The position numbers were made by a program, and so were the translations under genes. The notes below the pieces were generated by a model, which made no database searches, had not been told where the DNA came from, and was given only the letters and a program-made list of their open reading frames with translations. A stretch of DNA of 64,000 nucleotides, taken from assembly GCA_039832695.1 (NCBI GenBank), contig JBDOMM010000038.1, positions 265 through 64,264 of the forward strand. Direction: 5' to 3'. The stretch comes from Bacillus sp. (in: firmicutes) (GTDB lineage: Bacteria; Bacillota; Bacilli; Bacillales; Cytobacillaceae). Below, one piece after another: positions 23,294-56,409 of the stretch (its first letter is position 1; each line of letters starts with the position of its first letter).

Positions 23294-23371
23294 ACTATCC
23301 CTCCCCATTGTTAAAAACGCATAAAAATTAACTTCCCCACGAGTATTGTATGGCATTCTACTTTTTAAAGC

Positions 23372-28357: not shown

Positions 28358-28501
28358 ACGCTCACCTCTATTCGACCAATTATAACATACGATTGTTACC
28401 TTGGACTTTTTTGGGGTAAGCATTTAAAAAAAGATAGTACCAATAGCGGATTACTTTCCCAGTTATTGTTTATGGGGCCTATTTCTTATTTCCTATCTTA
28501 T

Positions 28502-38251: not shown

Positions 38252-38863
38252 ATGAATTTAGCAACAGAAACAGTCATTATTGGGGGGCAAACGGTAAAGA
38301 AAAGGCTTTTATTTGCGTTATTAGGTGGATTTGTATTCTTTGGTTCACTACTGGGCCTGTTTGGAGTAACCGGTGTAGCGGCCGCTGTGCCACTAAGTGG
38401 TGTTGGGGAATTTACTGTAAGTTTCGATAAAATGGTAGGAAAAGACTTTCAATTATTAGGCGGAATGGCTGATAGTGTTTCACGACAAAATAACCCTGTC
38501 GCTGTTAATAAGATTAAACACGCTACTATTTATGGCTTAGAAATTTCTAAAGAAGTCTCTATTCCAGGACTGCCAACTTTCAGAGTAGTAATCGAATCAA
38601 AAAATCCTGATAATCCAGTTGAAATTGACGGGTTATTACAAAAAGCTACTGTTGTTTCAGGTGATGCTGTGTTTACTAACATGGAAATGAAAGAAACATA
38701 TGTTGCTGATAAAGATCCATTAACACAAGCAGCTGAGGGCTTCACTCAAAGTGCAAACACAATTACTATTAACAAAGGTGTTTTAAAAACCTTATACCTC
38801 TGGCAGGATAAAGTATCTTTATCTAATATGAAAGTGTTCTTTGAAATTCCAGACAAGAAATAA
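38252..38863 (+). CDS. Secreted beta-rich protein, DUF6230-like
   Basis: GGQTVKKR + hydrophobic stretch + GVAAA leader, similar to recalled actinobacterial DUF6230 leaders; beta-pattern body. Confidence 0.65.
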   Translation: MNLATETVIIGGQTVKKRLLFALLGGFVFFGSLLGLFGVTGVAAAVPLSGVGEFTVSFDKMVGKDFQLLGGMADSVSRQNNPVAVNKIKHATIYGLEISKEVSIPGLPTFRVVIESKNPDNPVEIDGLLQKATVVSGDAVFTNMEMKETYVADKDPLTQAAEGFTQSANTITINKGVLKTLYLWQDKVSLSNMKVFFEIPDKK

Positions 38864-38892
38864 CCATAACCATCATAGAAAATTGAGTAAGG

Positions 38893-39342
38893 ATGATAAA
38901 AATGAATTCTACTTATTCAAAACGTGAGAGGTTTAAGAATTGGAGAGCAAGGCGCCCTTTTTGGGGGGCGACCTTGTCATCCCTTTCAGGACTAATCATT
39001 TTATACGTACCAGCACAGCTTTATGAACTTGCAGCAACCCCTGGTAGCACATTGTTTGCAGGCTTCTTTCTAGGAGGCTTAACAATGCTAATGGGCGTTT
39101 TGGCATTTTTTATGCCTAGATTATCAACATTGCTTGGAATTTTAGCTATGTTCGCGGCAGTTCTTTCCATTTTAGGTGCATTAGGAGGGCTTTTCATCGG
39201 AACCATTCTCGGAATCATTGGTGGAGCAATGATGATTGCTTGGAAACCTGAGATTGCACAAAGGGAAACAAGTATACAATCACAACCTGATCAAATAGCT
39301 GAAAAAGAAGTGGCATCTGGAAAGGACGTTTTACCGGATTAA
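38893..39342 (+). CDS. Membrane protein, DUF6114-like
   Basis: WRARRPFWG and LGGLFIGTILGIIGGAMMIAW motifs; 4 TM. Confidence 0.75.
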   Translation: MIKMNSTYSKRERFKNWRARRPFWGATLSSLSGLIILYVPAQLYELAATPGSTLFAGFFLGGLTMLMGVLAFFMPRLSTLLGILAMFAAVLSILGALGGLFIGTILGIIGGAMMIAWKPEIAQRETSIQSQPDQIAEKEVASGKDVLPD

Positions 39343-39345
39343 AAT

Positions 39346-39936
39346 TTGATTGCATTCGCAGAAATGGTGATGGCTTTGAAACATAGAAACAGTACTTATA
39401 AAATCCTAATTATTTTGATTACTACATTAGGCGGATTACTCTTCTTAACAAAGGATAGTTATGCCAGTAACCCAACAGTAGTTGGATTTATCATTGAAGC
39501 TAGCAAATTGGAAGGAACACTACAAAATCCAGTAATGACTGTTGGTAATACTGCTGTTGAAAAAAATCGTTCCATGTTGGAATTAAAATTTGATAACCTT
39601 TCATCAGAGGACTTAGTGATCAGAAAAATAATTAAAACCTCAAAAGGTTTGGTCACTACCACTATGACTTCTAAAGAAAAAATTATTTTCCAAAATCTAA
39701 CTTTATCCGTGACCAACGCAGAATTCAGCGAACCTTTTGACCCTGAAATCGGAAACATTGGTCTAAAAAACGTAAAACTTTTAGCACATAATGTGAAAAC
39801 AGATAGCTCTCAGCTCCCCCAATTTCAACTAAGTTTTAATGAGGGTGGCCAGGTGGAGTTAGAACCAAAAAGTGAGGCGGAGCTTCTTCAAATGAAAGCA
39901 GGTTTAGAACAATTAATTTCAAATACTAATCAATAA
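39346..39936 (+). CDS. Secreted beta-rich hypothetical protein, possible distant paralogue of 38252
   Basis: Signal-peptide-like N-terminus (true start possibly TTG 39376); GFIIEASKLEG resembles GEFTVSFDKMVG. Confidence 0.65.
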   Translation: MIAFAEMVMALKHRNSTYKILIILITTLGGLLFLTKDSYASNPTVVGFIIEASKLEGTLQNPVMTVGNTAVEKNRSMLELKFDNLSSEDLVIRKIIKTSKGLVTTTMTSKEKIIFQNLTLSVTNAEFSEPFDPEIGNIGLKNVKLLAHNVKTDSSQLPQFQLSFNEGGQVELEPKSEAELLQMKAGLEQLISNTNQ

Positions 39937-41151: not shown

Positions 41152-41470
41152 TGGTTCCCCCTGCCTCTTTTTAAGGACTTTTTACTCATCTGGCAAATGG
41201 ATTTATATAAGAAAATATTTACAAAATTTTACCAATATCATCCTATTTCATCCTAGTTAGAAGTATATCACCAAATATTGTCAGATTAGTTATGAATTTA
41301 TTACATTTGTATTTCATTGGTAATTTTTACGAATATATTTCGAACAAAGTACAAAGATGAAATAAAAAAACCACAATCTTAACTATTTAATAGTGATTGT
41401 GGTTCTAGCTTCTGTATAGAATTTTTATGAGTATCAATGTTGTTTATAGCTCCTTAATTTCTATTCTAAA

Positions 41471-42070
41471 TCACGGCGTTTTAACGAGTTCTTTAATACT
41501 GTTTTTTCCCCGCTCGACAAGATTTAAATGAGTATTCCTTGCAAGTTTAATATACTCTTTTCTTACCTCGAACCATGCGTGTCTTCGTTCGCGGGCAAAT
41601 GCAATGCTAGATTCGGCATTTTTTTCAAAGTTATCTTCCAAACGATCAACCATATGGAAAATAGATTTAATTGGAGTTAATGCCAATTTTTCTAACTGCC
41701 CTGATACTTCTTTTAACTGATTCTTAAGTTCTTGACGGTCATTAGAGAAAATTTCTTCATCCTTCGGTTCATCCTTAGCAGCATTAAATTGATGCATTAA
41801 TTCGGATACCATTTCTTTGTTTGTTTTCTTGGACTGACTATACAATTTTGCAATTGAAGTTCTATATTGCTTATTAAACTTAATAACCTCTTTTAATGCA
41901 TTAATATATGCGTCCTCACGATTTTCTCTAAGCTGTTGTGCACGCTCACGTGACAATTCAAACTGATCCCAAAATGTGTTAACAAATGATCCTGCTTTCA
42001 TCGATTCCTCTACTATTGGAGTTGCTTTTTCATCAACAGCTGGGACCTTTTCAATTTTCTTCTGCACCAT
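41471..42070 (-). CDS. Phasin-like granule protein (PhaP-like)
   Basis: All-helical, Cys-free; FVNTFWDQF resembles the Bacillus PhaP N-terminus; overlaps the phaQ end. Confidence 0.6.
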   Translation of the reverse strand: MVQKKIEKVPAVDEKATPIVEESMKAGSFVNTFWDQFELSRERAQQLRENREDAYINALKEVIKFNKQYRTSIAKLYSQSKKTNKEMVSELMHQFNAAKDEPKDEEIFSNDRQELKNQLKEVSGQLEKLALTPIKSIFHMVDRLEDNFEKNAESSIAFARERRHAWFEVRKEYIKLARNTHLNLVERGKNSIKELVKTP

Positions 42071-42491
42071 CGTCCTTCCTCCTCCTTTTTCCATTGTTTT
42101 CTTTCTCTATGGGATCCTTCTTTTGAAATGAAGGAATATAGAGCTCAAGGAAACTGGTATACATCTTAAAGAATTGATCTAAGAGGGATTGGTACGTTTC
42201 TAGTTGGTTCGCATAGCCTTTTAAATATGTAACACCAGCTTTTGTAATAGAGTATCTTCTTTTTGCGGGACCACTCCCTGTTGTATCCCATTCTGATGAA
42301 ACAAGCTCGTCTTTTTCTAGTTGCCTAAGTAATCTGTATAAATTCCCTTGGTCAAGTGTTTTGAACCCGAATGTCTCCAATCTTTGGCTAAGTTCATAAC
42401 CATGGAGTGAAACTTTACTAAGAAGCAATAAAATAAATGGCAGCACAAAATTTTTTGATGGATTAACAGCTGGATTGTCTTGGTTCACCAT
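42051..42491 (-). CDS. phaQ: PadR-family PHB-responsive repressor
   Basis: LHGYEL.Q.L..FGF..LDQGNLYRLLRQLEKD.L.SS.WDT...GPA.R.Y matches recalled PhaQ. Confidence 0.85.
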   Translation of the reverse strand: MVNQDNPAVNPSKNFVLPFILLLLSKVSLHGYELSQRLETFGFKTLDQGNLYRLLRQLEKDELVSSEWDTTGSGPAKRRYSITKAGVTYLKGYANQLETYQSLLDQFFKMYTSFLELYIPSFQKKDPIEKENNGKRRRKDDGAEEN

Positions 42492-42639
42492 ATCTTTATC
42501 ACCTCACCTATATGTATTTTACACCTATAAGTAATATTTTGTCAATACAGTAAATAAATATGAATAAATGCCAAATTAAAAGGTTTACAATATACTAAAA
42601 TTGGTTATAAACTAAATAAAAATGAAAAGGTGGTGTAAA

Positions 42640-43422
42640 ATGGAAAAATCTAAATGGAGCAAAATGGGAATCCCATACTTACATTTTGGAAGTGGAGAAC
42701 CATTGGTACTTATCCATGGGTTAGGTGAAGTGAAAGAAGGATGGAAAAATCAATTCGAATTAGCTGATCAATTTGAGTTAATTATTCCCGATTTGAGAGG
42801 TCATGGTGAGTGTTCAAAAATAGATGGTATTACGATTCACAACTTTGCTTCTGACATTATTGGACTATTAAAAGAGTTAGAAATTGAAAACGCTCACATA
42901 CTCGGTTACTCTATGGGTGGAGCCGTTGCACAAGAAATTTACCGCCAAGTCCCCAACCTCTGCCGTTCTCTCTTGTTGGTTAGCACCTTTCACTATTTCC
43001 CAAAAAAGCTAAAAAGACTATTATATAACAATCGAAAGGCTAAGTTTGAAGCTGTTACAGCTGCTGGTAAACAAACCGATTTTATTTCAAAAATGGCTCT
43101 ATACTCATGGAATAAAGAAACGAAAGAAATATTTAGCCACTCATTTCACCCAAAACATCACATATTTCTACAATCCTTGAACACATGTCTGGATGTAAAT
43201 AATTTGTCCTTACTGCCAAAAATAAACATTCCAACGTTAATCATAGGTGGCCAGTACGACTCTGTATTACCTGTTTGGATTCAAGCATGCATGCACAAGT
43301 TAATTCTGCCTTCCGAATTTATTATCATGAGAAATACTGGGCATATTGCCAAGTTAGAAGCCAAAGACAGATTTAACTACTTGCTCCGCAAGTTCCTAAT
43401 TCAGCAAAAGTCAGTTGCATAA
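42640..43422 (+). CDS. Alpha/beta hydrolase, candidate intracellular PHA depolymerase/esterase
   Basis: HGLG oxyanion motif, DLRGHG, GYSMGG nucleophile, YD and TGH triad residues. Confidence 0.75.
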   Translation: MEKSKWSKMGIPYLHFGSGEPLVLIHGLGEVKEGWKNQFELADQFELIIPDLRGHGECSKIDGITIHNFASDIIGLLKELEIENAHILGYSMGGAVAQEIYRQVPNLCRSLLLVSTFHYFPKKLKRLLYNNRKAKFEAVTAAGKQTDFISKMALYSWNKETKEIFSHSFHPKHHIFLQSLNTCLDVNNLSLLPKINIPTLIIGGQYDSVLPVWIQACMHKLILPSEFIIMRNTGHIAKLEAKDRFNYLLRKFLIQQKSVA

Positions 43423-43461
43423 AAAACGGGAAGGGTAATGTCCTTCCCGTTTTTTATGCAT

Positions 43462-44520
43462 TTAGTGTGAATGAGATGAAAGCCATTGGTCAGCAAATTT
43501 GGCAAACATTCCTGTTAAAGCAAGGGAAACATGTCCGCCTTCAAATACCTGATATGTTTTATCTTCACTTGATATCATATTCATAATTGGCACACTTTGC
43601 TGTTCTAATACTAGAGTATCTCTAGATGTCGAAAAAACAAAAGTCGGGCACTCAATATTTTTTAAATCTACTTTTCTGCCACCGATTTCTAATTCACCTT
43701 TTAGTAGTTTATTATCTTTGTAGAAATCATTAAATAACTGTTTAAAGGCTGCACCTGCAAACGAAGCTGTATCCTTTGTCCATTTATCCATCCTGCGCCA
43801 TTTTTCTACATACTCAGGATCGTGGGCCCGGGTTATTAGGTTAACCCAAGGACTGATATAAACGGGCGAAAGCCCTCTAAACATGAGGTACATATATTCC
43901 GATGGAATTACCCCATACACATCAGAAAACCGGTTAAAGTCCATCGCACCCTTTTGTAATCCTTTTAACCACTTATGTGGAACAATCCCAACACTAAAAT
44001 CAATCGGAACGGTTGCAAGAACTAGATTTCTGATTGGTAGTTTCGTAATAGAGGTAAAAATGGCTGAAATGGTTCCTCCTAGGCAATAACCAACCATCGA
44101 AATACCCTTTGCTCCTGAATGTCTAAGTGCCCGTTTTACAGCATTTTCTAAGTAATCAATGATATAATTATCAAGGGTTATATCACGATCTTCATATCCT
44201 GGTGAACCCCAGTCTAAAAAATAAACATCATAGCCTCGCCCTGTTAAACCACCCACAACACTGCTACCCTCACCAATGTCTAAAATATATGATTTATTAA
44301 GCAGTGAATAGACTAAGAATATAGGAATTTCATATCTTTTATCTTTAGCAGGATGATAATATAAGGTGGATTTATTCTTTTTCCAAATTATTTCTCTTGG
44401 TGTTGGAGTAATATCTGGTTTAGGCTCTGTAAGAACCTTATATACTTGATTCCATCTTGCAGTTTCTTTTTCTATATCAAGCTGGGGAATAAAATTAGGA
44501 CCCAGTGCTTTTATACTCAT
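43462..44520 (-). CDS. phaC: Class III/IV-type PHA synthase catalytic subunit
   Basis: TPREIIW, YSLLNKSYILD, LDWG, GYCLGG catalytic Cys, RD and GGH triad. Confidence 0.88.
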   Translation of the reverse strand: MSIKALGPNFIPQLDIEKETARWNQVYKVLTEPKPDITPTPREIIWKKNKSTLYYHPAKDKRYEIPIFLVYSLLNKSYILDIGEGSSVVGGLTGRGYDVYFLDWGSPGYEDRDITLDNYIIDYLENAVKRALRHSGAKGISMVGYCLGGTISAIFTSITKLPIRNLVLATVPIDFSVGIVPHKWLKGLQKGAMDFNRFSDVYGVIPSEYMYLMFRGLSPVYISPWVNLITRAHDPEYVEKWRRMDKWTKDTASFAGAAFKQLFNDFYKDNKLLKGELEIGGRKVDLKNIECPTFVFSTSRDTLVLEQQSVPIMNMISSEDKTYQVFEGGHVSLALTGMFAKFADQWLSSHSH

Positions 44521-44541
44521 CCTCATTCTCACCTTTCACAT

Positions 44542-45018
44542 TTATTTAGATGCGCCGGCACCTGTGAGCACTAGCTCTTTTTCTTTTTCTTTTCCCTTTC
44601 CTTTCGCGAGAATACTTTTTATTGATGCAAGCTCTGCTTTAATGTCTTTTAATTGTGACAACTCTTGATTAACAGCTTTAAGAACTTCCAAGTACTCATT
44701 ATTAAGTGAACTCATGCTATCCTGTAAATTCCAGATTTGTTCCTCTAATTTATCTATTTTCTCCTCCGATTGAATAGAAATCTTCGCTACATCTGCCACA
44801 TCTTTTTTTGTCGGTATATTCATTAAGCCAGCCATTAGCTCATGGTTTTTTCTTAATAACTCCATATAACGAGCATGGCTCTCGGTACCGGTTTTCAGGA
44901 GGCGGACAAACTCATTGTTGTCCGTCATCATATACAAAAGACCATTTAATTGCCTCTCCCACATTTCACTAATCCGCTTAACCCCCACAAATGGGTCATA
45001 TGTTTTATCTTTAGTCAT
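44542..45018 (-). CDS. phaR: Class IV PHA synthase accessory subunit
   Basis: YDPF..., NIPTKKDVADVA..I..EEKIDKLEE motif of Bacillus PhaR; directly upstream of phaC. Confidence 0.8.
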   Translation of the reverse strand: MTKDKTYDPFVGVKRISEMWERQLNGLLYMMTDNNEFVRLLKTGTESHARYMELLRKNHELMAGLMNIPTKKDVADVAKISIQSEEKIDKLEEQIWNLQDSMSSLNNEYLEVLKAVNQELSQLKDIKAELASIKSILAKGKGKEKEKELVLTGAGASK

Positions 45019-45038
45019 CTTGCATCTCCCCTTTAAAT

Positions 45039-45686
45039 CTATGATTGAAGTTCTTCGGTTTTTTCTAAATATTTATTAATTGGGAACATAACCGTTTTTA
45101 TTTGTCTCGCAAAAAGGTTGACAAAGCCCCTCTGGCTTTCATAAATTAAATTCCCAGCTTGTTTAACAGTATGAATATATTGCACCCTGCCTTTTTTCCT
45201 CAATGAGATGTATTGGTCGATCATTTCTATATATTTATCCATTGTTAAATAGCTATGAACCGTATGACACGGTGCACTAAGAATTGAGATTGTTTTCTTT
45301 TGGATTTTATCAATCTGAGCATTTATTTCCTCATAAGATCGAACCGGAGAAAAATGTTGAAGACTAGTCGTAGACATTAGGAATTCCTCTCGTGCCATTC
45401 TCTCCCATTCAGCAAATTCTTTATTAAATTTTTCTGTTATCTCCTTCACGTTTCCCTGATTTCTTTTTATACTCTCAGCGAATAACTTTGCTTCTTTTAA
45501 AAATACTTCATCGCGAAAATCAGCTCGTTTCGCCCATTCATCTAGTTCTCCAAAAGCATGCCGCCAAAGTATATCCAAACTAGAAAGCTGTTCTAGTTCG
45601 TCATGTTCTTCATGTATTTCTTCCTTCTGTTCCGTATTCTCATTGGTATCCTGTGATTCTGTTTCTTTATTTGGCAAATTAATCAC
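45039..45686 (-). CDS. Helical hypothetical protein, second phasin-like candidate
   Basis: Acidic N-terminus, SLDILW motif, amphipathic helices; upstream of phaR on the same strand. Confidence 0.55.
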   Translation of the reverse strand: MINLPNKETESQDTNENTEQKEEIHEEHDELEQLSSLDILWRHAFGELDEWAKRADFRDEVFLKEAKLFAESIKRNQGNVKEITEKFNKEFAEWERMAREEFLMSTTSLQHFSPVRSYEEINAQIDKIQKKTISILSAPCHTVHSYLTMDKYIEMIDQYISLRKKGRVQYIHTVKQAGNLIYESQRGFVNLFARQIKTVMFPINKYLEKTEELQS

Positions 45687-45788
45687 GTCCTATATTATTA
45701 ATTTTAAATTTTTGAATTTTGAATTTTTCTAAGATGGATTATATATAGAAAACTTTGAAGTAGTTCATGTGGGAGTTTGAGATTGTGG

Positions 45789-47420
45789 TTAAACATGTAG
45801 TTGTTCTTCATCTTTACGTAACATCCGTCTCAATAATTTACCTACGGATGATTTTGGCAGTTCATCAAGAATTTCGATCTCTTTTGGAACCTTATAGGGT
45901 GCTAAGTTAACCTTAGCAAATTCAATTAGTATTTCAGGCGTTACAAGAATGCCAGTCTTTAACTTAACAAAAGCCTTAACCGTTTCCCCTCTGTAACTGT
46001 CTGGTGCACCAATAACAATGGCTTCCTCAACTGCCTCGTGCTGGTAGAGCACTTCTTCGATTTCACGTGGATACACATTATAGCCGCTGGCAATGATAAT
46101 ATCTTTCTTACGATCCAAAATGTAAAAATACCCATCCTCATCCATTTTCGCAATGTCTCCAGTGAAGAGCCAACCATCTCTTAAGACCATTTCCGTATCA
46201 CCAGGCCGTTTCCAGTAGCCCTTCATTACCTGCGGTCCACGTAGGATTAATTCGCCCGCTTCCCCAATTGGGACATCTTCAATACCATGGGCAGTTTGTG
46301 TTACAATTCTAGCTTCAGTTCCTGGCAAAGGAATACCAACGCTTCCTAATTTTCTTGGTAAGAATGGTGGTGTAGAGATTGCCGATGGTGCCGTTTCTGA
46401 TAATCCATACCCGTCTGCCAATCTTACTCCAACTCTTTTCTCAAAGGACCTTACCTGCTCGACCGGAAGAGGTGCTCCTCCGCTGCTTAAATAATAGATA
46501 TCTCCTAAGTTGCTTGCCTCTAAATCAGGGTGACTATTAAAAGCGAAAATCATTGTTGGGACTGCTGTCAGTTGAAATGGTTTTTCCCTTTTAACCAGTT
46601 CTAATACTTCATTCACATCAAACCTAGGTAAAATCAGCTGATTACAGCCAATCCTAATGGCAGAAAGTGCATTACAAGAAAGTCCATACACGTGGAACAT
46701 CGGAAGTACACTCACAATTTTAAAATTTTCAGGCTTCTCTTCCACCGCATTGTAGGTAAAGTCACATACTTGAATAATATTTGCTAACAAGTTGTGATGG
46801 GTAAGCATAACCCCTTTAGATACTCCAGTTGTCCCACCGGTGTATTGTAAAATAGCGACATCCTCAGCTATATCAATCGGAATTTCAGGAATGACATTAT
46901 CATGTGTAAGAAAATCCTCAAAGTAAACATCCCCATCAGCAAGTTGAATTCTATTAGCACCAAAACCAACAACAATAATCCTCTTTAAAGAAGTCTTTGG
47001 TTGAACCCTCTTTACTCTAGAATAGAAATCTTCAAATACAACCATATACTCTGCCTCAGAATCATTTAACACATATTCTATTTCTCTTTCCACGTACATC
47101 GGATTGACTTGAACAGAAATAACACCTAGCCTAAACCCTGCAAAAAGACTAAATATATAATGAGGGCAGTTTGGCAGCATAATGGCGAGACGTTCTCCCT
47201 TTTTTAAACCAATCCGATATAAAGAGGCAGCAAACCATTCAGAGATCATTTTGGTTTCCTTATAGCTCCAAGATCTTCCATAAAAGGTAAGGGCCGGCCT
47301 TTCATTGTGAATATTGGCTGCCTGCTTTAAAAGATCAAATAATGAATCGTACTCAATCGAAACCGTTTCACTAATCCTTGGGTCGTAAAATTTTAACCAT
47401 GGTTTTTTTTGATATTCCAT
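45789..47420 (-). CDS. Long-chain-fatty-acid--CoA ligase (FadD/LcfA family)
   Basis: LQYTGGTTGVSKG, GYGLSE, GPQVMKGYW, FTGD, DRKKD, GKLLRR. Confidence 0.92.
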   Translation of the reverse strand: MEYQKKPWLKFYDPRISETVSIEYDSLFDLLKQAANIHNERPALTFYGRSWSYKETKMISEWFAASLYRIGLKKGERLAIMLPNCPHYIFSLFAGFRLGVISVQVNPMYVEREIEYVLNDSEAEYMVVFEDFYSRVKRVQPKTSLKRIIVVGFGANRIQLADGDVYFEDFLTHDNVIPEIPIDIAEDVAILQYTGGTTGVSKGVMLTHHNLLANIIQVCDFTYNAVEEKPENFKIVSVLPMFHVYGLSCNALSAIRIGCNQLILPRFDVNEVLELVKREKPFQLTAVPTMIFAFNSHPDLEASNLGDIYYLSSGGAPLPVEQVRSFEKRVGVRLADGYGLSETAPSAISTPPFLPRKLGSVGIPLPGTEARIVTQTAHGIEDVPIGEAGELILRGPQVMKGYWKRPGDTEMVLRDGWLFTGDIAKMDEDGYFYILDRKKDIIIASGYNVYPREIEEVLYQHEAVEEAIVIGAPDSYRGETVKAFVKLKTGILVTPEILIEFAKVNLAPYKVPKEIEILDELPKSSVGKLLRRMLRKDEEQLHV

Positions 47421-47462
47421 CTTATTCCCCTCCTCATTATTCTTTCAGCTTTGAAGAAAGCG

Positions 47463-50066
47463 TTATACTCCTTTAAAAGCTCGTTGATAAATTTCAGCTA
47501 GTTCACTCACAAATGGCTGTTTTGGATTGGCGATGGTATCTTGATCATCAAATGCTCGTTCTGCCATTTCAAGAACCTTGCTTTCGAATACGGACTTAGA
47601 AACACCATTTCCCTCTATACTCATTTGAATATCTAATTCTTTAGCAAGTTTGGTAATAGCATGAATTAAGCTCTCGATTCCTTCTTCCGTTGTACTAGCA
47701 GGCAATCCTAGTATTTTGGCAATTTCACAATAGCGTTTATCAGCAATAAAGTATTCATATTTAGGATACGTCATAAATTTATTTGGTTTAGCTGAATTGT
47801 ACCGTATCACATGTGGTAAAAGAATTGCATTGGCACGTCCATGTGGAATAGTAAATTCGGCACCAAGTACGTGTGCTAAGCTATGGTTAATTCCTAAAAA
47901 TGAATTAGCGAATGCCATTCCAGCTATGGTTGATGCATTATGCATTTTTTCTCGAGCTAATTCGTCACTTCCATCCCGATATGCTCTTGGCAAATACTCA
48001 AAGACCAACTGAATGGCTTTTAAGGCCAAGCCGTCCGTATAATCATTTGCTAAAACAGAGACATATGCTTCAATAGCATGGGTCAATACATCCATCCCTG
48101 TATCAGCAGTCACATGTTTTGGAACAGACATTACAAACTGTGGGTCAATAATTGCCACATCCGGTGTTAGTTGAAAATCTGCAAGCGGGTATTTAATGTT
48201 TGCTTTTTTATCCGTAATAACAGAAAAGGCTGTTACTTCTGAACCTGTACCTGAAGTCGTTGGAATGGCAACAAATTTTGCTTTCCCACGTAGAACTGGG
48301 AATTTAACCACTCGCTTATTCGGATCAAAGAATTTTTTAGTCAAACTATGGAAATCTGTCTCTGGATGTTCGTAAAACAACCACATTGCTTTTGCGGCAT
48401 CCATGACCGACCCGCCACCGAGGGCAATAACGACATCAGGTTGAAAACCTCTCATTCTATCTGCGCCCTTCATAACTGTCTCAATACTAGGCTCTGGTTC
48501 AATTTCAGAAAATATCTCATATTGAACCTTATTTGGATTCTTATCAAGATAATAAATAACCTTGTCTACAAAACCATTTCCCAAAGAGCTTCCGCTTGTA
48601 ACAAGAAATGCTTTCGAAATTTTCGGGATAGAGGCAAGCATCTGAATTGAATTTTTCTCGAAGAATATCTGGGATGGGACCTTAAACCATTGTGTAAATG
48701 TTCGTCTTTTGGCTACCTTTTTAATATTGATAAGATTAGCTGCTCCAACATTCTGTGACACTGAATTTCCTCCATAGGATCCACATCCTATCGTTAAGGA
48801 CGGGAGTGAAGTGTTATAGATATCACCGATGGCTCCATGGGTAGAAGGAGTGTTGACAATAATACGGCCTGCCTTCATGCGCATTGCGAATCTATCAACT
48901 AGAGTTTGGTCAGCTGTATGTATGGCTGCAGAATGTCCAAGTCCCCCATACTCCAGCGTTTCTTCCGCAATCAATAACCCTTCCGAAAAACTATCAACCT
49001 TATAGCAGGCTAGGATTGGACTGAGTTTTTCACAAGAAAGTGGAAATTTTGGACCTACCCCCTCTAATTCAGCAATTAGAATCTTCGTATTTACAGGAAC
49101 ATTCACTCCTGCCATTTTTGCAATCATGTAAGCTGGTAAACCAACGATTAATTGATTAATAGAATTCGTTTTCTCGAAAATGGCCACTTTTTCTATGAGT
49201 TTTCGTTCTTCTTCATTTAGGAAATAGCACTGATTTTCAATCATTACCTGTTTTACTTCATTGTAAATTTCTTGATCAATGATCAGTGCTTGTTCTGAAG
49301 CACAAATCATTCCATTATCGAAGGTTTTAGATAAAATTACATCATTGACTGCTCGTTTGATGTTTGCAGTTTTCTCAATATAACAAGGAACATTCCCTGC
49401 TCCAACACCTATTGCTGGTTTACCAGAGCTATAAGCAGCTTTTACCAAATTAGGTCCACCTGTTGCTAAGATGAGGGAAATCTTTGGATGTATCATTAGA
49501 GCTTGGAAGGCTTCGTGAGAAGGTAACTCAATCCATTGAATACAATTCTCAGGAGCGCCTGCCCGTATGGCGGCATTCTTTAATAAGGAGGCAGTCTCTG
49601 TGCAGCATTGTTGAGCATATTTAGGAAAGGCAAAAATGATAGGGTTTCTTGTTTTAAGTGAAATAAGAGATTTGAAGATTACAGTTGATGTTGGATTGGT
49701 AATTGGAATGACACCTGCGATGACACCTACTGGTTCAGCCATCTCTACCATTCCTTCATTTTCGTTTTCGCTAATGACACCTACTGTTTTCATATCCCTT
49801 ATATTGTTGTAGATAAATTCTGTAGCAAACATATTTTTAAAAACCTTGTCTTCGTAAACTCCTCTTCTTGTTTCATTTACAGCGAGTTTTGCTAAATGCC
49901 TATGATTTTCAAGTGCAGTAACAGCCATTTGCTTAATAATTTCATCAACCATCTCTTGGGTAAAACAGCGAAAGGCTTCAAGTGCTTTTACCGCGTTATT
50001 TGCTAACGAGTCAATCATCGCCGCAACCGTTTGGGTTTCAAGTACCACTCTTTCTTCTACTGACAT
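47463..50066 (-). CDS. adhE: Bifunctional acetaldehyde-CoA/alcohol dehydrogenase
   Basis: PITNPTST, GMICASEQ, GCGSYGGNS linker, GGGSVMDAAK, PTTSGTGSE, HSLAH. Confidence 0.93.
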   Translation of the reverse strand: MSVEERVVLETQTVAAMIDSLANNAVKALEAFRCFTQEMVDEIIKQMAVTALENHRHLAKLAVNETRRGVYEDKVFKNMFATEFIYNNIRDMKTVGVISENENEGMVEMAEPVGVIAGVIPITNPTSTVIFKSLISLKTRNPIIFAFPKYAQQCCTETASLLKNAAIRAGAPENCIQWIELPSHEAFQALMIHPKISLILATGGPNLVKAAYSSGKPAIGVGAGNVPCYIEKTANIKRAVNDVILSKTFDNGMICASEQALIIDQEIYNEVKQVMIENQCYFLNEEERKLIEKVAIFEKTNSINQLIVGLPAYMIAKMAGVNVPVNTKILIAELEGVGPKFPLSCEKLSPILACYKVDSFSEGLLIAEETLEYGGLGHSAAIHTADQTLVDRFAMRMKAGRIIVNTPSTHGAIGDIYNTSLPSLTIGCGSYGGNSVSQNVGAANLINIKKVAKRRTFTQWFKVPSQIFFEKNSIQMLASIPKISKAFLVTSGSSLGNGFVDKVIYYLDKNPNKVQYEIFSEIEPEPSIETVMKGADRMRGFQPDVVIALGGGSVMDAAKAMWLFYEHPETDFHSLTKKFFDPNKRVVKFPVLRGKAKFVAIPTTSGTGSEVTAFSVITDKKANIKYPLADFQLTPDVAIIDPQFVMSVPKHVTADTGMDVLTHAIEAYVSVLANDYTDGLALKAIQLVFEYLPRAYRDGSDELAREKMHNASTIAGMAFANSFLGINHSLAHVLGAEFTIPHGRANAILLPHVIRYNSAKPNKFMTYPKYEYFIADKRYCEIAKILGLPASTTEEGIESLIHAITKLAKELDIQMSIEGNGVSKSVFESKVLEMAERAFDDQDTIANPKQPFVSELAEIYQRAFKGV

Positions 50067-50150
50067 CTTCATTCCCTCCAAACACATTTACTCCTATTGG
50101 CTAAAATATATCATTTAGAAATTCCGAAAATTGTCGAATCATGCAAGAAA

Positions 50151-50170
50151 ACGAATGAGTACTCATTCAT
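50151..50170. promoter_or_regulatory. FadR(YsiA)-like TetR operator upstream of adhE
   Basis: ACGAATGAGTACTCATTCAT; perfect 16-bp palindrome GAATGAGTACTCATTC; close to the WTGAATGAMTANTCATTCAN consensus. Confidence 0.7.
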
Positions 50171-50257
50171 TTCATAGAATGTTCAAAAATTGGAGGAACT
50201 CTTTCCAAAATAAAAAGAGGCCGACTTAAATGAGTCAGCCTCCGATTCAGTTGGGTA

Positions 50258-53014
50258 TCAGCCAGTATTCCTTAATCCAGCAGATATACCACTTATAGTT
50301 AGAAGAACTTGTGTGAGCAATTCATCATTCTCTCCTTCTTGTTTCCTTAATTCTTTAATTAACTCAACTTGAAGGTGGTTTAATGGGTCAACATAAGGAT
50401 TACGTCTATGAACCGATTCTTGAATATTTGGAGTATGATCCAGCAATTCATTATCCCCTGTTATTTTCAATAAAATAGCTTTCGTTCTTTCATATTCTTC
50501 TAAAATATTCGTAAAAATTCTATCTGAGATTGCTTTATCTTGAACAAGAGTTAAATATTCCTTCGCAGTGGTAATATCAGCTTTCATTAACGCCATGTGT
50601 AAATTATCAATCGTTGATCGAAAAAATGGCCACTTCTCATACATTTGTTGTAAGAGCTGAAGATTTCCAGCACTTTTTGAAGCAAAAGTGTCTAGTCCAG
50701 TTCCAGCAGCATACCATGCAGGAAGCAATTGCCTGCTTTGTGTCCACGCAAACACCCATGGAATTGCCCTTAAATCCTCAAAACGACCTCGATTTTTTCT
50801 ACTCATTGGTCTTGAACCAATATTTAGGTCACCTAATTCCCTTAATGGTGTTGCTTCATTAAAGTATGTTAAGAAGTCTGGATCTCCAAATACTAATGAT
50901 TGATATTTCCCCAAAGAAATACCCGCAATTTCTTCAATGGTTTCTTCCCAAATAGGATCTCGGTGATATCCTGACTCTTTTGATACATGTGTTGCTGCAA
51001 GCAGTAAGGTAGATGTCGCCTGCTCTAGACTACGGTAAGCAATATCCTCAAGCAAATACCTTGACGATAATACTTCCCCCTGTTCGGTAATCTTTACACC
51101 ATCTCCAATTGTTTCAGCCGGTTGAGATAAGATGCTCTTATTTAATGGACCGCCGCCACGGCCAAGCGAACCACCGCGGCCGTGGAAGAATTTAAGGCCA
51201 ATATCATACTGCTTAGCCATTTTATGAATTTCAATTTGGGCTCTATACAGCTTCCAATTGGCAGTAAGTGTTCCACCATCTTTGCTACCATCAGAGTATC
51301 CTAGCATGATTTCCTGTTGGTCCCCTAAAATTTTCAAATGATTGCGGTACAATGGCATTTCAAAGAGAGTTTCCATAATCTTAGGACCCGCAACAAGGTC
51401 ATCAATTGTTTCCAGCAATGGAGCTACATTTAAATGACTTTCTAAAGTGCCGTCTGCGTGAAGTCGATAAATTCCTGCCTCTTTTGCAAGAACTAGAACT
51501 TCAAGCAAGTCACTTGGTGATTTAGTCATACTAACAAGGTAGACAGAAATGGATCGTTTCCCAAACACTTCATGTGCCTCTTTGATCATTTGGAATACTT
51601 TAATCATTTCTTGCGTTTCCGCAGAATAATCTTCATTCAAAAGTAGCACAGGGCGTGGATCCATTAAGATATTTTGTAAAATCTTTATTTTTTCTTCTTC
51701 AAGTAGTTCCGCATAGTTTTCAGTAATTCTTACTTTGCGAAGAATCTCTGTAATAGCCGCTTCGTGTTCCCCACTATGGTTACGAATATCCAATGTTGCT
51801 AAATGGAAGCCAAATAACTGAACTTGACGAATCAGCTTCTGAATAATTTTTAATTCATGCGCAGCAGGGTGATGCATCTTTAAACTTCTTTTAATAAGAT
51901 ATAAGTCTTCTAATAATTCCTCTGCAGATTTATATCCTAATTCTGAGGACCCTACATGCTTAACTCGTTCAATAATAAGTGCAAAGGCCCGACGATACAC
52001 TTCCGCTTTATTAGGCCATTTTTTCTCTTCTTTTAAGTAAATATCTTCTTTTTCTTCGATAAAAGTAAGTAATTCTTCACTAACCTCTACACGTGTAGTG
52101 GCCTGGCTGTATCTCTTCATTAGGTCGACTAATACATTCTTATACTTCTTTAGTACCAATCTTCTTTGTTTATTTAAGGTTTCCCATGTGACCTCGTGGG
52201 TAACATTCGGGTTGCCGTCACGGTCTCCGCCGATCCATGAACCGAAACGAAGGAAATTAGGAACTTCCCATGCAGCATGAGAATAATACTTACCTAAATT
52301 GTCGGCCACTTCCTGGTGTATCTCCGGAAGCACCTCAAAAAGTGTTTGATCAAAATAATACAATCCATTTCTTACTTCATCCAACACAGTTGGCTTATGC
52401 TGACGCAGTTCATCGGTTTGCCATAGAATCGTCACTTCATTAAACAAGCTTTCTTCAAGCTTTTTTCTTTCCCTGCTAGTTAACAAAGGATGATCTAGAC
52501 TTTTTAAGATGTCAGCGATTCGCTGTTGAATTTCAAGAATGGAGCGCTTAGTCGCCTCAGTTGGATGAGCCGTGATGACCAATTCTAAGGATAGCGTATG
52601 TAAAACTTTTTGAATCACATCTTCATTAATATCATTCTCTTTAAGAGAAAGAATCGCACTCTCAATGGATGCAGGCTGTACAATATTATCATCTTGAAGC
52701 TGATATTCCCTCCGTCTTCTGATGCGATGGTTTTGTTCAGCTGCGTTTATCAAATGGAAATACATAGAAAAAGCACGGATAATTTGTCTTCTCATCGGAG
52801 AGCTTAGATTAGCGATTTCTTCTTTTAAATTAGTATAAATTTCTTGATCAAAGTGAGTTCTTAAAGTCTTTGACATCAATCTAATTTTCTCTACTTTTTC
52901 GAATAATTCAGATCCACCATGATTGACAAGAATTTCACCAAGCATTTTTCCAAGTAATTTCACATCACGACGCAACGGAAGACTGCTGTCATTTACTTTT
53001 AATTCTGTTGCCAT
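50258..53014 (-). CDS. ppc: Phosphoenolpyruvate carboxylase
   Basis: VITAHPTE, SWIGGDRDGNP, MLGYSDGSKDGG, FHGRGGSLGRGG, LRAIPWVFAWTQ, GLRNTG. Confidence 0.97.
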   Translation of the reverse strand: MATELKVNDSSLPLRRDVKLLGKMLGEILVNHGGSELFEKVEKIRLMSKTLRTHFDQEIYTNLKEEIANLSSPMRRQIIRAFSMYFHLINAAEQNHRIRRRREYQLQDDNIVQPASIESAILSLKENDINEDVIQKVLHTLSLELVITAHPTEATKRSILEIQQRIADILKSLDHPLLTSRERKKLEESLFNEVTILWQTDELRQHKPTVLDEVRNGLYYFDQTLFEVLPEIHQEVADNLGKYYSHAAWEVPNFLRFGSWIGGDRDGNPNVTHEVTWETLNKQRRLVLKKYKNVLVDLMKRYSQATTRVEVSEELLTFIEEKEDIYLKEEKKWPNKAEVYRRAFALIIERVKHVGSSELGYKSAEELLEDLYLIKRSLKMHHPAAHELKIIQKLIRQVQLFGFHLATLDIRNHSGEHEAAITEILRKVRITENYAELLEEEKIKILQNILMDPRPVLLLNEDYSAETQEMIKVFQMIKEAHEVFGKRSISVYLVSMTKSPSDLLEVLVLAKEAGIYRLHADGTLESHLNVAPLLETIDDLVAGPKIMETLFEMPLYRNHLKILGDQQEIMLGYSDGSKDGGTLTANWKLYRAQIEIHKMAKQYDIGLKFFHGRGGSLGRGGGPLNKSILSQPAETIGDGVKITEQGEVLSSRYLLEDIAYRSLEQATSTLLLAATHVSKESGYHRDPIWEETIEEIAGISLGKYQSLVFGDPDFLTYFNEATPLRELGDLNIGSRPMSRKNRGRFEDLRAIPWVFAWTQSRQLLPAWYAAGTGLDTFASKSAGNLQLLQQMYEKWPFFRSTIDNLHMALMKADITTAKEYLTLVQDKAISDRIFTNILEEYERTKAILLKITGDNELLDHTPNIQESVHRRNPYVDPLNHLQVELIKELRKQEGENDELLTQVLLTISGISAGLRNTG

Positions 53015-53156
53015 ACCATTCACCTTCCCTTAGTCAAAAAATTCGCTAAATTTTTATATATAAATATAACATAAATTTACCCATCATGTGAAAGAAATAA
53101 CTTACTTTTTTAAAAAAAGAAAAAAAACTGCACCAAGCAGGCTTTGAAAATAGGAA

Positions 53157-55546: not shown

Positions 55547-55562
55547 CCGAAAAAACTCCCTT

Positions 55563-56339: not shown

Positions 56340-56373
56340 GTTACACCTCTTGGAATAATTTTCATATCTCCAA

Positions 56374-56391
56374 TGAATTAACGTTCGTTCA
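56374..56391. promoter_or_regulatory. Operator copy 1 (TGAATTAACGTTCGTTCA)
   Basis: 16 bp identical to 57290-57305; imperfect palindrome TGAA..AACGTT..TTCA. Confidence 0.65.
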
Positions 56392-56409
56392 CAAGGTCCG
56401 CAAAAAAAA

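What the first reader, a model, noticed from the sequence alone, without database searches (positions are those of the whole stretch)
41471..50170. Atypical class IV PHA locus fed by an acyl-CoA ligase and AdhE instead of PhaB
Order on minus: FadR-like operator, adhE, acyl-CoA ligase, phasin-like, phaR, phaC, then a convergent alpha/beta hydrolase, phaQ and phaP-like. Canonical Bacillus loci are phaP-phaQ-phaR-phaB-phaC (sometimes with phaJ), but no acetoacetyl-CoA reductase, thiolase or hydratase is present here. Three models: (a) the ligase activates hydroxy-acids, and AdhE interconverts diols or alcohols with hydroxyacyl-CoA, giving non-3HB monomers (4HB/3HP-type); (b) AdhE supplies ethanol or alkanols as chain-transfer agents, since class IV synthases are known to catalyse alcoholysis, giving short ester-capped oligomers; (c) a PhaC-fold enzyme condenses acyl-CoA with AdhE-made alcohol into ester storage lipids. 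This is the strongest candidate for an undescribed storage-polymer system in the window.
Basis: partly seen in the sequence, partly recalled or inferred. Interest (0 to 1): 0.8.

Follow-up and report, generated by a model that had tools for sequence, protein, structure and literature searches.

The report
Accessory PHA synthase operon with adhE
A soil Bacillus relative (Neobacillus) has a second polyester-synthase operon that NCBI does not annotate as such, joined to an alcohol dehydrogenase, a fatty-acid-activating enzyme and a fatty-acid-sensing switch; congeners carrying this operon also keep the normal bioplastic (PHB) genes elsewhere, which hints at a separate route from fats or alcohols into storage polyester.

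Summary
On the minus strand lie a FadR-type operator (50151-50170), adhE, an acyl-CoA ligase, a remote phasin homologue (X), phaR-like and phaC-like genes, then a convergent alpha/beta hydrolase and phaQ-phaP. No reductase, thiolase or hydratase was found in any ORF of 120 aa or more in the 64 kb.

The interpretation needs correcting. This PhaC/PhaR pair belongs to a separate paralogous clade. It is 38-43% identical to canonical class IV PhaC, scores below NCBIfam's cut-off, and NCBI names it 'alpha/beta fold hydrolase'. Congeners with this locus also carry a canonical thiolase/phaP | phaR-phaB-phaC locus elsewhere. PhaB is therefore probably not replaced, and this is an accessory system.

The link to adhE is real:
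- adhE directly precedes the synthase genes in all 41 orthologous loci.
- The FadR box lies upstream of adhE in all 40 complete loci. In a sister locus type without adhE it lies directly upstream of phaR.
- Metatranscriptome contigs tile adhE through phaC.
- A paralogous locus joins the same X-phaR-phaC triad to ligase + aldehyde dehydrogenase + Fe-alcohol dehydrogenase + alkylsulfatase.

Best reading: an accessory PHA synthase operon induced by fatty acyl-CoA and tied to alcohol and fatty-acid catabolism. Polymer chemistry is untested.

The parts
50151..50170 (.). FadR (YsiA, TetR-family)-type palindromic operator, 85-104 nt upstream of the likely adhE start
   Evidence: the only match in the window, with 1 mismatch. 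B. halodurans FadR operator; conserved upstream of adhE in 40/40 complete orthologous loci, and upstream of phaR in 13/13 complete type C loci.
50216..50243 (-). Intrinsic terminator of the upstream ppc gene; upstream boundary of the unit
   Evidence: RNA contig depth is 1-2 in 50091-50507 and 14-56 inside the adhE 5' end.
47463..50066 (-). adhE, bifunctional acetaldehyde-CoA/alcohol dehydrogenase (the ORF extends to 50087; GGAGGG lies before the ATG at 50066)
   Evidence: NF010378 scores 1346 bits, above its cut-off of 951.
45789..47420 (-). Acyl-CoA ligase of the FadD/LcfA type (LIG), 42 nt after adhE
   Evidence: AMP-binding plus AMP-binding_C; long-chain fatty-acid CoA ligase models score 447-477 bits, below their cut-offs; nearest solved structures are fatty-acyl and feruloyl CoA synthetases.
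45039..45686 (-). X, 215-aa remote homologue of the Bacillus phasin PhaP; always precedes phaR-phaC in locus types A, B and D
   Evidence: only 30 clusters in 1.84 billion representative proteins.
44542..45018 (-). PhaR-like synthase subunit (PhaR2)
   Evidence: TIGR02132 scores 40 bits, full-length alignment; 26% identity to P. megaterium PhaR over the N-terminal 82 aa, with the N-I/V-P-T-K-x-D-V-A motif.
43462..44526 (-). PhaC-like PHA synthase catalytic subunit (PhaC2), Cys148-Asp303-His332
43416..43460 (.). Bidirectional intrinsic terminator between phaC2 and the convergent hydrolase
   Evidence: 19-20 bp stem with U-tracts on both strands.
42640..43422 (+). Alpha/beta hydrolase (G-Y-S-M-G box), candidate intracellular depolymerase or esterase; conserved in types A and D
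   Evidence: NF050089 scores only 71 bits against a cut-off of 300.
42516..42545 (-). Sigma-70-like promoter of phaQ-phaP (TTGACA-18-TAAAAT)
   Evidence: 11 of 12 positions match..
42051..42491 (-). phaQ, PadR-family PHB-responsive repressor
   Evidence: TIGR02719 scores 141.1 bits against a cut-off of 139.35.
41471..42094 (-). phaP, Bacillus-type phasin; overlaps phaQ by 44 nt; very highly transcribed in situ
   Evidence: PF09602 scores 100 bits. RNA contig depth 950-6500 against 8-25 for the synthase operon.

Best explanation
The window holds an accessory PHA-synthase operon of a Neobacillus: FadR operator, adhE, fatty-acyl-CoA ligase, phasin-like X, PhaR2, PhaC2. After it come a candidate depolymerase and the phaQ-phaP regulator/phasin pair.

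PhaR2/PhaC2 are a distinct paralogous lineage of the two-subunit (class IV-like) synthase. Congeners keep the ordinary thiolase/phaR-phaB-phaC locus elsewhere, and this organism probably does too.

Proposed working:
1. With little long-chain acyl-CoA, FadR sits on the palindrome and represses the operon.
2. When fatty acids or alkanols are being degraded, acyl-CoA releases FadR.
3. The ligase activates free acids, either fatty acids or 3-hydroxy-acids released by the depolymerase.
4. AdhE interconverts alcohol, aldehyde and acyl-CoA. The direction is unknown: it may feed alcohols in, or bleed off acetyl-CoA and NADH as ethanol.
5. PhaR2C2, together with X, polymerises (R)-3-hydroxyacyl-CoA into granules coated by PhaP. 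The substrate would come from beta-oxidation intermediates or from acetyl-CoA through the distant PhaA/PhaB.

Shown: gene content, homology, catalytic residues, conserved synteny and operator, transcripts across every junction, and a canonical locus in congeners.

Inferred: FadR binding and induction, polymerase activity, ligase substrate, AdhE direction and monomer source.
For: Family membership:
- The Cys-Asp-His triad aligns with P. megaterium PhaC and with solved class I synthases.
- A PhaR homologue lies adjacent.

Paralogy:
- Locus types A-D form one clade apart from canonical PhaC (39% mean identity).
- TIGR01836 scores 295-311 bits for this clade and 421-533 bits for canonical proteins; the cut-off is 365.
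- Canonical phaA/phaP | phaR-phaB-phaC loci occur in N. cucumis and Bacillus sp. UNC41MFS5, both of which also hold this clade.
- Canonical PhaC is present in N. drentensis, bataviensis, vireti, pocheonensis, massiliamazoniensis and others.

Operon:
- Gaps are 42, 102, 20 and 9 nt, and the 102-nt gap has no terminator.
- RNA contigs span adhE-LIG, LIG-X, X-phaR and phaR-phaC.
- The ppc region just upstream is about 10-fold lower in depth.

Regulation:
- The FadR box lies upstream of adhE in 40/40 complete type A loci and directly upstream of phaR in 13/13 complete type C loci.
- Control therefore follows the synthase genes, not adhE alone.

Metabolic link:
- The paralogous type B locus places ligase, aldehyde dehydrogenase, Fe-alcohol dehydrogenase, alkylsulfatase and an MFS transporter directly before X-phaR-phaC.
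- In Mesobacillus, adhE and LIG-SDR flank the same triad.

Phenotype: B. drentensis BP17, identified by 16S, makes PHB (PMC7082031).
Against: - AdhE scores as an ordinary acetaldehyde/ethanol enzyme. Nothing indicates long-chain or hydroxyacyl substrates.
- No (R)-specific hydratase or reductase lies in the locus or the window, so the monomer route is unseen.
- The ligase has been lost in about half of the type A loci.
- The FadR box is absent from types B and D.
- The RNA evidence is unstranded assembled contigs from soil metatranscriptomes, 95-99% identical to the window, not from this strain.
- Within-genus synteny alone is weak evidence of function.
Confidence: 0.55

Rival explanations
1. 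Neighbours without a pathway. adhE is simply the organism's fermentative acetyl-CoA/NADH sink, and the synthase genes happen to ride on its transcript. The polymer is ordinary PHB made through the distant PhaA/PhaB. The only link is physiological: both are overflow sinks under oxygen limitation.
For: - AdhE passes the equivalog model for the standard enzyme.
- A canonical phaA/phaB exists in congeners.
- PHB homopolymer from glucose is reported for B. drentensis BP17.
- Transcripts come from anoxic rice-paddy soil.
- The ligase is dispensable in many genomes.
Against: - A FadR operator is not what a fermentative adhE would be expected to carry, and the same operator sits directly on phaR-phaC where adhE is absent.
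- Alcohol and aldehyde dehydrogenases plus a ligase recur, in unrelated form, before the paralogous triad in type B.
- adhE keeps its place beside the locus across an inversion between Mesobacillus and Neobacillus.
Confidence: 0.2
2. Alcohol chain transfer. AdhE supplies ethanol or another alkanol that PhaR2C2 uses as a chain-transfer and alcoholysis agent, giving short polyesters or oligomers capped with an alkyl ester.
For: - B. cereus YB-4 PhaRC performs chain transfer and alcoholysis with ethanol made by host AdhE.
- Deleting adhE in E. coli cut 3HB oligomers to about one fifth (PMC8878867).
- Here adhE and a PhaRC-type synthase share a transcript and an operator.
Against: - PhaC2 is only about 40% identical to canonical class IV enzymes, so nothing can be transferred about its alcoholysis.
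- In type B the alcohol-side enzymes (alkylsulfatase, Fe-ADH, ALDH, ligase) read as an oxidative route that consumes alcohol.
- FadR control has no obvious logic in this model.
Confidence: 0.1
3. Non-3HB monomers. The ligase activates hydroxy-acids, and AdhE converts diols through hydroxy-aldehydes to hydroxyacyl-CoA (4HB or 3HP type). PhaC2 then polymerises them without any reductase.
For: - No reductase, thiolase or hydratase lies in the locus.
- A CoA-acylating aldehyde dehydrogenase plus an alcohol dehydrogenase could in principle make hydroxyacyl-CoA from diols (inference from enzyme classes).
- A divergent synthase may have a different specificity.
Against: - The absent reductase is explained by the canonical locus elsewhere.
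- The operator is a fatty-acyl-CoA sensor type.
- Type B points to alkyl sulfates and alkanols, not diols.
- No substrate-specific signature was found in AdhE or the ligase.
Confidence: 0.07
4. Not a polymerase. The PhaC-fold enzyme condenses acyl-CoA with an alcohol made by AdhE into ester storage lipids (wax-ester-like).
For: - An alcohol-handling enzyme and an acyl-CoA ligase recur next to the PhaC-like gene.
- NCBI names these proteins only 'alpha/beta fold hydrolase'.
Against: - The full PHA apparatus is attached: a PhaR homologue, PhaQ passing its equivalog cut-off, a PhaP phasin and a phasin-like X.
- The synthase triad is conserved, with 42% identity to a proven PHA synthase over 341 residues.
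- phaP is the dominant transcript in situ.
Confidence: 0.04

Closest known systems
Class IV PHA synthase loci of Priestia megaterium / Bacillus cereus (phaP-phaQ | phaR-phaB-phaC)
   Same: - Two-subunit synthase of about 40 kDa PhaC with the Cys-Asp-His triad, plus a PhaR with the N-(I/V)-P-T-K-x-D-V-A motif.
- PadR-type PhaQ and a PhaP_Bmeg phasin lie nearby.
   Different: - PhaC is only 38-43% identical and forms its own clade. PhaC and PhaR both score below the NCBIfam cut-offs.
- There is no phaB between phaR and phaC, and an extra phasin-like gene X lies before phaR.
- phaQ-phaP are co-directional and separated from phaC by a convergent hydrolase.
- adhE and a ligase are in the operon, with a FadR operator.
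- It coexists with a canonical locus in congeners.
Bacillus FadR (YsiA) regulon of fatty-acid degradation; B. halodurans FadR-operator complex (PMC5397183)
   Same: The operator sequence is nearly identical to the crystallised 21-bp site. An LcfA/FadD-type ligase lying under it is typical of the regulon (regulon content from my own knowledge of B. subtilis).
   Different: To my knowledge, and in the searched literature, a PHA synthase or adhE has not been described under a FadR box. Binding was not tested here.
Chain transfer and alcoholysis by B. cereus YB-4 PhaRC with AdhE-derived ethanol in recombinant E. coli (PMC8878867)
   Same: AdhE activity and a PhaRC-type synthase interact chemically, with ethanol becoming the carboxyl end-cap of 3HB oligomers.
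   Different: That case is an artificial host effect. Here the two genes are naturally joined in one operon, the synthase belongs to a different clade, and no product data exist.
Alkyl-sulfate (SDS) catabolic route: SdsA1-type alkylsulfatase, alcohol dehydrogenase, aldehyde dehydrogenase, acyl-CoA synthetase (own knowledge, Pseudomonas)
   Same: The paralogous type B locus encodes exactly this enzyme series plus an MFS transporter.
   Different: In Neobacillus the series is followed directly by X-phaR-phaC. The window itself holds type A, where a bifunctional AdhE stands in for the separate dehydrogenases.
Granule-associated acyl-CoA synthetase ACS1 of Pseudomonas putida in the PHA synthesis/degradation cycle (own knowledge)
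   Same: A FadD-type ligase is encoded with a synthase and a candidate depolymerase, which could re-activate released 3-hydroxy-acids.
   Different: No localisation or substrate data exist here, and the ligase is missing from about half of the orthologous loci.

Membership tests
PHA synthase PhaC, class III/IV type (TIGR01836) | Lipase-box-like G-X-C-X-G-G with the catalytic cysteine | tested here: met
   GYCLGG. C148 is invariant in 18 relatives and aligns with C151 of P. megaterium PhaC and with the Cys box of solved class I synthases.
PHA synthase PhaC, class III/IV type (TIGR01836) | Catalytic Asp and His | tested here: met
   D303 and H332 are invariant and align with D306 and H335 of P. 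megaterium PhaC.
PHA synthase PhaC, class III/IV type (TIGR01836) | Score at or above the curated family cut-off (365.3 bits) | tested here: not met
   The window PhaC scores 294.7 bits and a type D relative 311 bits. Canonical Neobacillus PhaC scores 470 and 421 bits, and P. megaterium 533 bits.
PHA synthase PhaC, class III/IV type (TIGR01836) | Polymerises (R)-3-hydroxyacyl-CoA | not testable with these tools
   Needs an enzyme assay or genetics.
Class IV PHA synthase (PhaC + PhaR, Bacillus type) | PhaR subunit encoded next to phaC | tested here: inconclusive
   A homologue is adjacent. TIGR02132 aligns over 1-147 but scores 40 bits against a cut-off of 148. Identity to P. megaterium PhaR is 26% over 82 aa. 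The canonical Neobacillus PhaR itself scores only 109 bits.
Class IV PHA synthase (PhaC + PhaR, Bacillus type) | Groups with canonical class IV PhaC in a tree | tested here: not met
   In a neighbour-joining tree, types A-D form one clade separated from N. cucumis, UNC41MFS5 and P. megaterium canonical PhaC. Mean identity between the groups is 39%.
Class IV PHA synthase (PhaC + PhaR, Bacillus type) | phaR-phaB-phaC operon layout | tested here: not met
   There is no SDR gene in the locus or the window. The layout is X-phaR-phaC.
PhaQ PHB-responsive repressor (TIGR02719) | Equivalog score at or above cut-off | tested here: met
   141.1 bits against 139.35.
Bacillus phasin PhaP (PF09602) | Pfam gathering score reached | tested here: met
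   phaP (41471-42094) scores 100.3 bits against 28.3. X does not reach it: no hit for the window copy, 18.6 and 15.6 bits in two relatives, and hhalign 78%.
AdhE bifunctional acetaldehyde-CoA/alcohol dehydrogenase (NF010378) | Full-length equivalog score with both domains | tested here: met
   1346 bits against 951. Aldedh, Fe-ADH and ADH_Fe_C domains are present.
FadR (YsiA) regulon of Bacillaceae | Operator matching the FadR palindrome in a promoter region | tested here: met
   One mismatch to ATGAATGANTANTCATTCAT, 85-104 nt before adhE. Compared with the B. halodurans site. Conserved in 40/40 type A and 13/13 type C loci.
FadR (YsiA) regulon of Bacillaceae | FadR binds the site and is released by long-chain acyl-CoA | not testable with these tools
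   No fadR gene lies in the window. The TetR gene at 54920-55546 matches no FadR model and is not conserved in relatives.
Intracellular scl-PHA depolymerase (NF050089) | Equivalog score at or above 300 bits | tested here: not met
   71.5 bits over residues 24-123 only. A G-Y-S-M-G serine box is present.
Long-chain fatty-acid CoA ligase (NF004837 subfamily and relatives) | Score at or above a curated cut-off | tested here: not met
   The nearest model to its cut-off is NF004837, at 446.7 bits against 476. NF005220 scores 477 against 1116. Only the general AMP-binding domains pass.

The most novel reading that the evidence does not exclude
Neobacillus and Mesobacillus carry an unrecognised subclass of two-subunit polyester synthase (X-PhaR2-PhaC2). 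Its natural role would be tied to alcohols. One possibility is that it polymerises acyl-CoA-derived monomers made directly from alkanols, diols or alkyl sulfates by the co-encoded dehydrogenases and ligase, giving non-PHB or copolymer material. The other is that it uses AdhE-made alcohol as a built-in chain-transfer agent, making alkyl-capped oligo-esters. Either would be a natural counterpart of what has so far been seen only in engineered E. coli.
Probability: 0.15. Interest if true: 0.8.

Novelty: new variant of a known kind. Interest (0 to 1): 0.55.

Why it matters
- PHA synthases are sorted into four classes, and Bacillus-type (class IV) loci are treated as phaR-phaB-phaC plus phaP/phaQ. 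This work finds a sister lineage of PhaC/PhaR that NCBI's pipeline labels only 'alpha/beta fold hydrolase'. It occurs in up to three copies per genome beside the canonical locus.
- The lineage always travels with a small, narrowly distributed phasin-like protein. It is repeatedly joined to alcohol and aldehyde dehydrogenases, an acyl-CoA ligase and, in one form, an alkylsulfatase.
- In two of the four locus types it sits under a FadR operator. That would place polyester storage in the fatty-acid-degradation regulon of a Gram-positive bacterium.
- If the enzymes differ in substrate range or chain-transfer behaviour, they are new parts for making copolymers or end-capped oligomers from fats, alcohols or surfactant waste.
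- If the polymer is plain PHB, the finding still corrects genome annotation. It would also explain why counting only annotated phaC genes in soil Bacillaceae misses several loci per genome.

Tried and rejected
- **Canonical locus in the window's own organism.** The canonical locus is therefore shown only in congeners.
- **Window proteins in the assembly collection.** Two look-ups of window proteins found nothing, probably because start codons differ.
- **Nearby TetR as FadR.** I asked whether the TetR gene at 54920-55546 is the FadR for the operator. It matches no FadR model and is absent from relatives, so I rejected it.
- **A second Mesobacillus locus.** In L074/L075 the ALDH and Fe-ADH genes lie 6-8 kb from phaRC behind their own TetR. 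I did not count them as evidence of linkage.
- **Other FadR-like boxes in related loci.** L044 and L035 have boxes that do not precede recognisable fad genes, so they give no independent confirmation of the regulon.
- **SDR as PhaB.** The SDR next to the ligase in type D loci is a PRK08213-like enzyme, not a PhaB equivalog.
- **Distant X homologues.** P0378 and P0385 lie near a hydrolase or a thiolase but not near phaC, which is uninformative.
- **Rfam.** It found nothing in the locus.
- **Literature.** Searches found no description of FadR-phaRC or adhE-phaRC operons. That covers only the open-access library searched.
- **Structure prediction of X.** Not run. A single-sequence model would be poor, and locus-derived sequences cannot be submitted.

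Full report
**1. What is in the sequence**

On the minus strand, after the ppc gene (50258-53023) and its terminator (50216-50243), come:
- a 20-bp palindrome at 50151-50170;
- adhE (47463-50066/50087; NF010378 1346 bits, cut-off 951);
- an AMP-dependent acyl-CoA ligase (45789-47420);
- a 215-aa protein with no Pfam match (X, 45039-45686);
- a PhaR-like protein (44542-45018);
- a PhaC-like protein (43462-44526).

A strong bidirectional terminator (43416-43460) separates phaC from a convergent alpha/beta hydrolase (42640-43422, +). A good sigma-70-like promoter (TTGACA-18-TAAAAT, 42516-42545) then precedes phaQ (TIGR02719 above cut-off) and phaP (PF09602), which overlap by 44 nt.

Pfam scans of all other window ORFs of 120 aa or more found no thiolase, short-chain dehydrogenase or MaoC hydratase.

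**2. The operator**

The palindrome reads ACGAATGAGTACTCATTCAT. That is one mismatch from ATGAATGANTANTCATTCAT, and it is the only such site in 64 kb. The 21-bp site co-crystallised with Bacillus halodurans FadR is GATGAATGAATACTCATTCAT (PMC5397183). Binding itself is inferred.

**3. Organism and relatives**

The PhaC-like protein is 80-90% identical to proteins of Neobacillus species, and 99% identical to one on a JGI metagenome contig with the same gene order. NCBI names these proteins 'alpha/beta fold hydrolase'.

A scan of one genome per species returned 80 loci. I called and clustered their ORFs. Four locus types emerged.

- **Type A** (41 loci including the window, about 38 distinct genomes, Neobacillus): ppc> adhE> [LIG] X> phaR> phaC> hydrolase< phaQ> phaP>. 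adhE is always present. The ligase is present in about 22 loci, including the basal lineages, and has been lost repeatedly.
- **Type B** (14 loci): LysR< LIG> aldehyde dehydrogenase> Fe-alcohol dehydrogenase> alkylsulfatase> MFS> X> phaR> phaC>.
- **Type C** (14 loci): [esterase>] phaR> phaC>, without X.
- **Type D** (17 loci; Mesobacillus and the N. niacini group): [adhE<] LIG> SDR> hydrolase< PhaR-paralogue> X> phaR> phaC> hydrolase< [phaQ> phaP>].

Single genomes hold up to three of these types.

An isolate run that shares 78% of the window's 31-mers also carries a type B locus. Its contigs are collinear at 85-95% identity with the N. rhizosphaerae type B locus.

**4. This is not the only synthase in the genus**

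Only the returned database proteins are used as evidence, and the top hit was 98% identical P. megaterium acetoacetyl-CoA reductase. The search returned 74-76% identical reductases in N. massiliamazoniensis, N. cucumis and Bacillus sp. UNC41MFS5. The first two carry type A loci (L019, L012). UNC41MFS5 encodes two PhaC proteins of the window's clade (P0027, P0074).

The genomic context of these reductases is a canonical locus: thiolase< phaP< | phaR> phaB> phaC>. A real P. megaterium locus was fetched for reference.
- The canonical Neobacillus PhaC scores 470 and 421 bits on TIGR01836, against a cut-off of 365.
- Its PhaB passes the acetoacetyl-CoA reductase equivalog.
- The window's PhaC scores 295 bits and a type D relative 311 bits.

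In an alignment and neighbour-joining tree, types A-D form one clade, with B nested in A, C sister to them, and D basal. The clade is separated from canonical PhaC, with 39% mean identity between groups and 38-43% for the window protein.

A search with the N. cucumis canonical PhaC shows that protein in N. drentensis, bataviensis, vireti, pocheonensis, massiliamazoniensis, niacini, ginsengisoli and strain DY30. In N. bataviensis it lies on the same 1.27-Mb contig as the type A locus L011.

A paper on a relative also treats phaC and phbB as normal Neobacillus genes (PMC11767280). B. drentensis BP17 makes PHB homopolymer from glucose by NMR (PMC7082031).

I could not run it on the window's own genome.

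**5. It is still a PHA-synthase-type enzyme**

The window PhaC is 42% identical to P. megaterium PhaC over 341 residues. C148, D303 and H332 align with C151, D306 and H335. These residues are invariant in 18 relatives, and the Cys and His boxes align with solved class I synthases.

PhaR2 aligns with the PhaR model over its whole length and shares the N-(I/V)-P-T-K-x-D-V-A motif.

X is a remote PhaP relative (hhalign 78%, E 2e-5 over 152 columns; sub-threshold full-length PF09602 hits). It belongs to a very small family of 30 clusters among 1.84 billion representative proteins.

**6. Is adhE really part of it?**

Four lines of evidence say yes.

(a) Spacing. The gaps adhE-LIG, LIG-X, X-phaR and phaR-phaC are 42, 102, 20 and 9 nt. 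The 102-nt gap has no hairpin better than shuffled sequence. In genomes without the ligase, adhE-X gaps are often 29-68 nt.

(b) Regulation. The FadR box lies upstream of adhE in all 40 complete type A loci. In type C, which lacks adhE, the same box lies about 75 nt upstream of phaR in all 13 complete loci. It is absent from types B and D. FadR control thus follows the synthase genes, and in type A it is exerted from in front of adhE.

(c) Transcripts. Rice-paddy metatranscriptome assemblies, 95-99% identical to the window, give contigs spanning every junction:
- adhE-LIG: 45790-49467 and others;
- LIG-X: 45668-45835 and 45674-46036;
- X-phaR: 44576-45498;
- phaR-phaC: 43507-44604.

Depths are similar along the block, at 8-25. 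The ppc region just upstream is about 10-fold lower. phaP is 100-300-fold higher (950-6500) and phaQ is intermediate. These contigs are unstranded and come from mixed communities, so this is good but not final evidence of one transcript.

(d) Recurrence. Alcohol and aldehyde dehydrogenases and a ligase appear, as different proteins, in front of the paralogous triad in type B. adhE also stays beside the locus across an inversion between Mesobacillus (type D) and Neobacillus (type A).

**7. Mechanism**

The most economical reading has five elements.
- It is an accessory PHA-synthase operon belonging to the fatty-acid-degradation regulon.
- FadR represses it until long-chain acyl-CoA accumulates.
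- The ligase makes acyl-CoA from free acids, possibly also from 3-hydroxy-acids released by the neighbouring hydrolase.
- AdhE links the alcohol, aldehyde and acyl-CoA pools, in an unknown direction.
- PhaR2C2 with X polymerises hydroxyacyl-CoA into granules coated by the very highly expressed PhaP, under PhaQ control.

Type B then reads as the same storage module attached to an alkyl-sulfate and alkanol oxidation route.

The monomer source is not visible. It could be beta-oxidation intermediates via an unlinked hydratase, or acetyl-CoA via the distant PhaA/PhaB. I put this reading at 0.55.

The rivals:
- Mere co-transcription with a fermentative adhE, with both acting as acetyl-CoA/NADH sinks (0.2).
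It has a real precedent: AdhE-made ethanol caps 3HB oligomers made by B. cereus PhaRC in E. coli, and an adhE deletion cuts them five-fold (PMC8878867).
- Hydroxy-acid or diol-derived monomers (0.07).
- An ester-lipid synthase (0.04). This is disfavoured by the complete granule apparatus and the conserved synthase triad.

**8. Comparison and novelty**

The locus works like a class IV PHA system, and its proteins are homologous to one. It nevertheless fails three membership tests for the canonical family: the curated HMM cut-offs, tree placement and the phaR-phaB-phaC layout.

I found no description of this clade, of X, of a FadR box on PHA synthase genes, or of a natural adhE-phaRC operon in the searched literature. 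That library is open-access only.

I class it as a new variant of a known kind. It is more structured than a chance neighbourhood, being a multi-copy family missing from NCBI's annotation, with recurrent alcohol, aldehyde and acid-activation partners and a specific regulatory signal. Interest 0.55.

Noticed in passing
L004/L052 (Neobacillus sp. SuZ13), L036 (N. rhizosphaerae) and 10 other genomes; isolate run X1: The paralogous 'type B' locus reads LysR< ligase> aldehyde dehydrogenase> Fe-alcohol dehydrogenase> SdsA1-type alkylsulfatase> MFS> X> phaR> phaC>. It looks like an alkyl-sulfate/alkanol catabolic route fused to a polyester synthase. An isolate nearly identical to the window's organism also carries it.
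   Followed up: partly
window 41334-42584: In three rice-paddy metatranscriptomes, phaP contigs have depth 950-6500 and phaQ 190-480, against 8-25 for adhE..phaC. This suggests a separate strong promoter or a very stable phaP message. phaQ and phaP overlap by 44 nt.
   Followed up: partly
L065, L068, L071-L073, L076-L085 (type D loci): A second, shorter PhaR paralogue (cluster 'c16', 113-159 aa; hhalign to PhaR 98%) sits before X. These loci therefore encode two PhaR-like proteins. A ligase-SDR pair (gap 8-20 nt) precedes it in Mesobacillus, and the SDR is PRK08213-like, not a PhaB equivalog.
   Followed up: partly
L055-L067 (type C loci, N. niacini group): phaR-phaC without X is preceded by a GESAG-motif hormone-sensitive-lipase-family esterase. 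The FadR box lies in the esterase-phaR spacer.
   Followed up: partly
window 12072-19232: A methionine-salvage cluster (ARD dioxygenase, class II aldolase, HAD phosphatase, RuBisCO-like protein, aminotransferase, C-N hydrolase, APH-family kinase) has two SAM riboswitches, at 15407-15514 (-) and 17786-17943 (+).
   Followed up: partly
window 54920-57243: Three genes lie between the aminotransferase and the COXG-like gene: a weak metallo-beta-lactamase-fold protein, a CAAX/Rce1-like protease and a TetR regulator. They are absent at this position in the related loci examined, so this is a small strain-specific insertion.
   Followed up: no
window 7131-10423: An EtfB/EtfA pair plus an FAD-dependent oxidoreductase (FixABC-like) lies in a stretch of higher G+C (42% against about 36%).
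   Followed up: no
window 19986-25365 and L090 10605-12374: The window holds a two-gene 2-oxoacid:ferredoxin oxidoreductase and a B12-binding radical-SAM/DUF4080 protein. The same DUF4080 radical-SAM gene lies 2.7 kb from phaC in the P. megaterium canonical locus, which is probably coincidence.
   Followed up: no
window 26511-28423: A sigma factor is paired with an RsgI-type anti-sigma factor.
   Followed up: no
window 38252-39936: A conserved trio, DUF6230, DUF6114 and an unannotated 196-aa protein, is syntenic with the PHA locus in many Neobacillus genomes. Its function is unknown.
   Followed up: no
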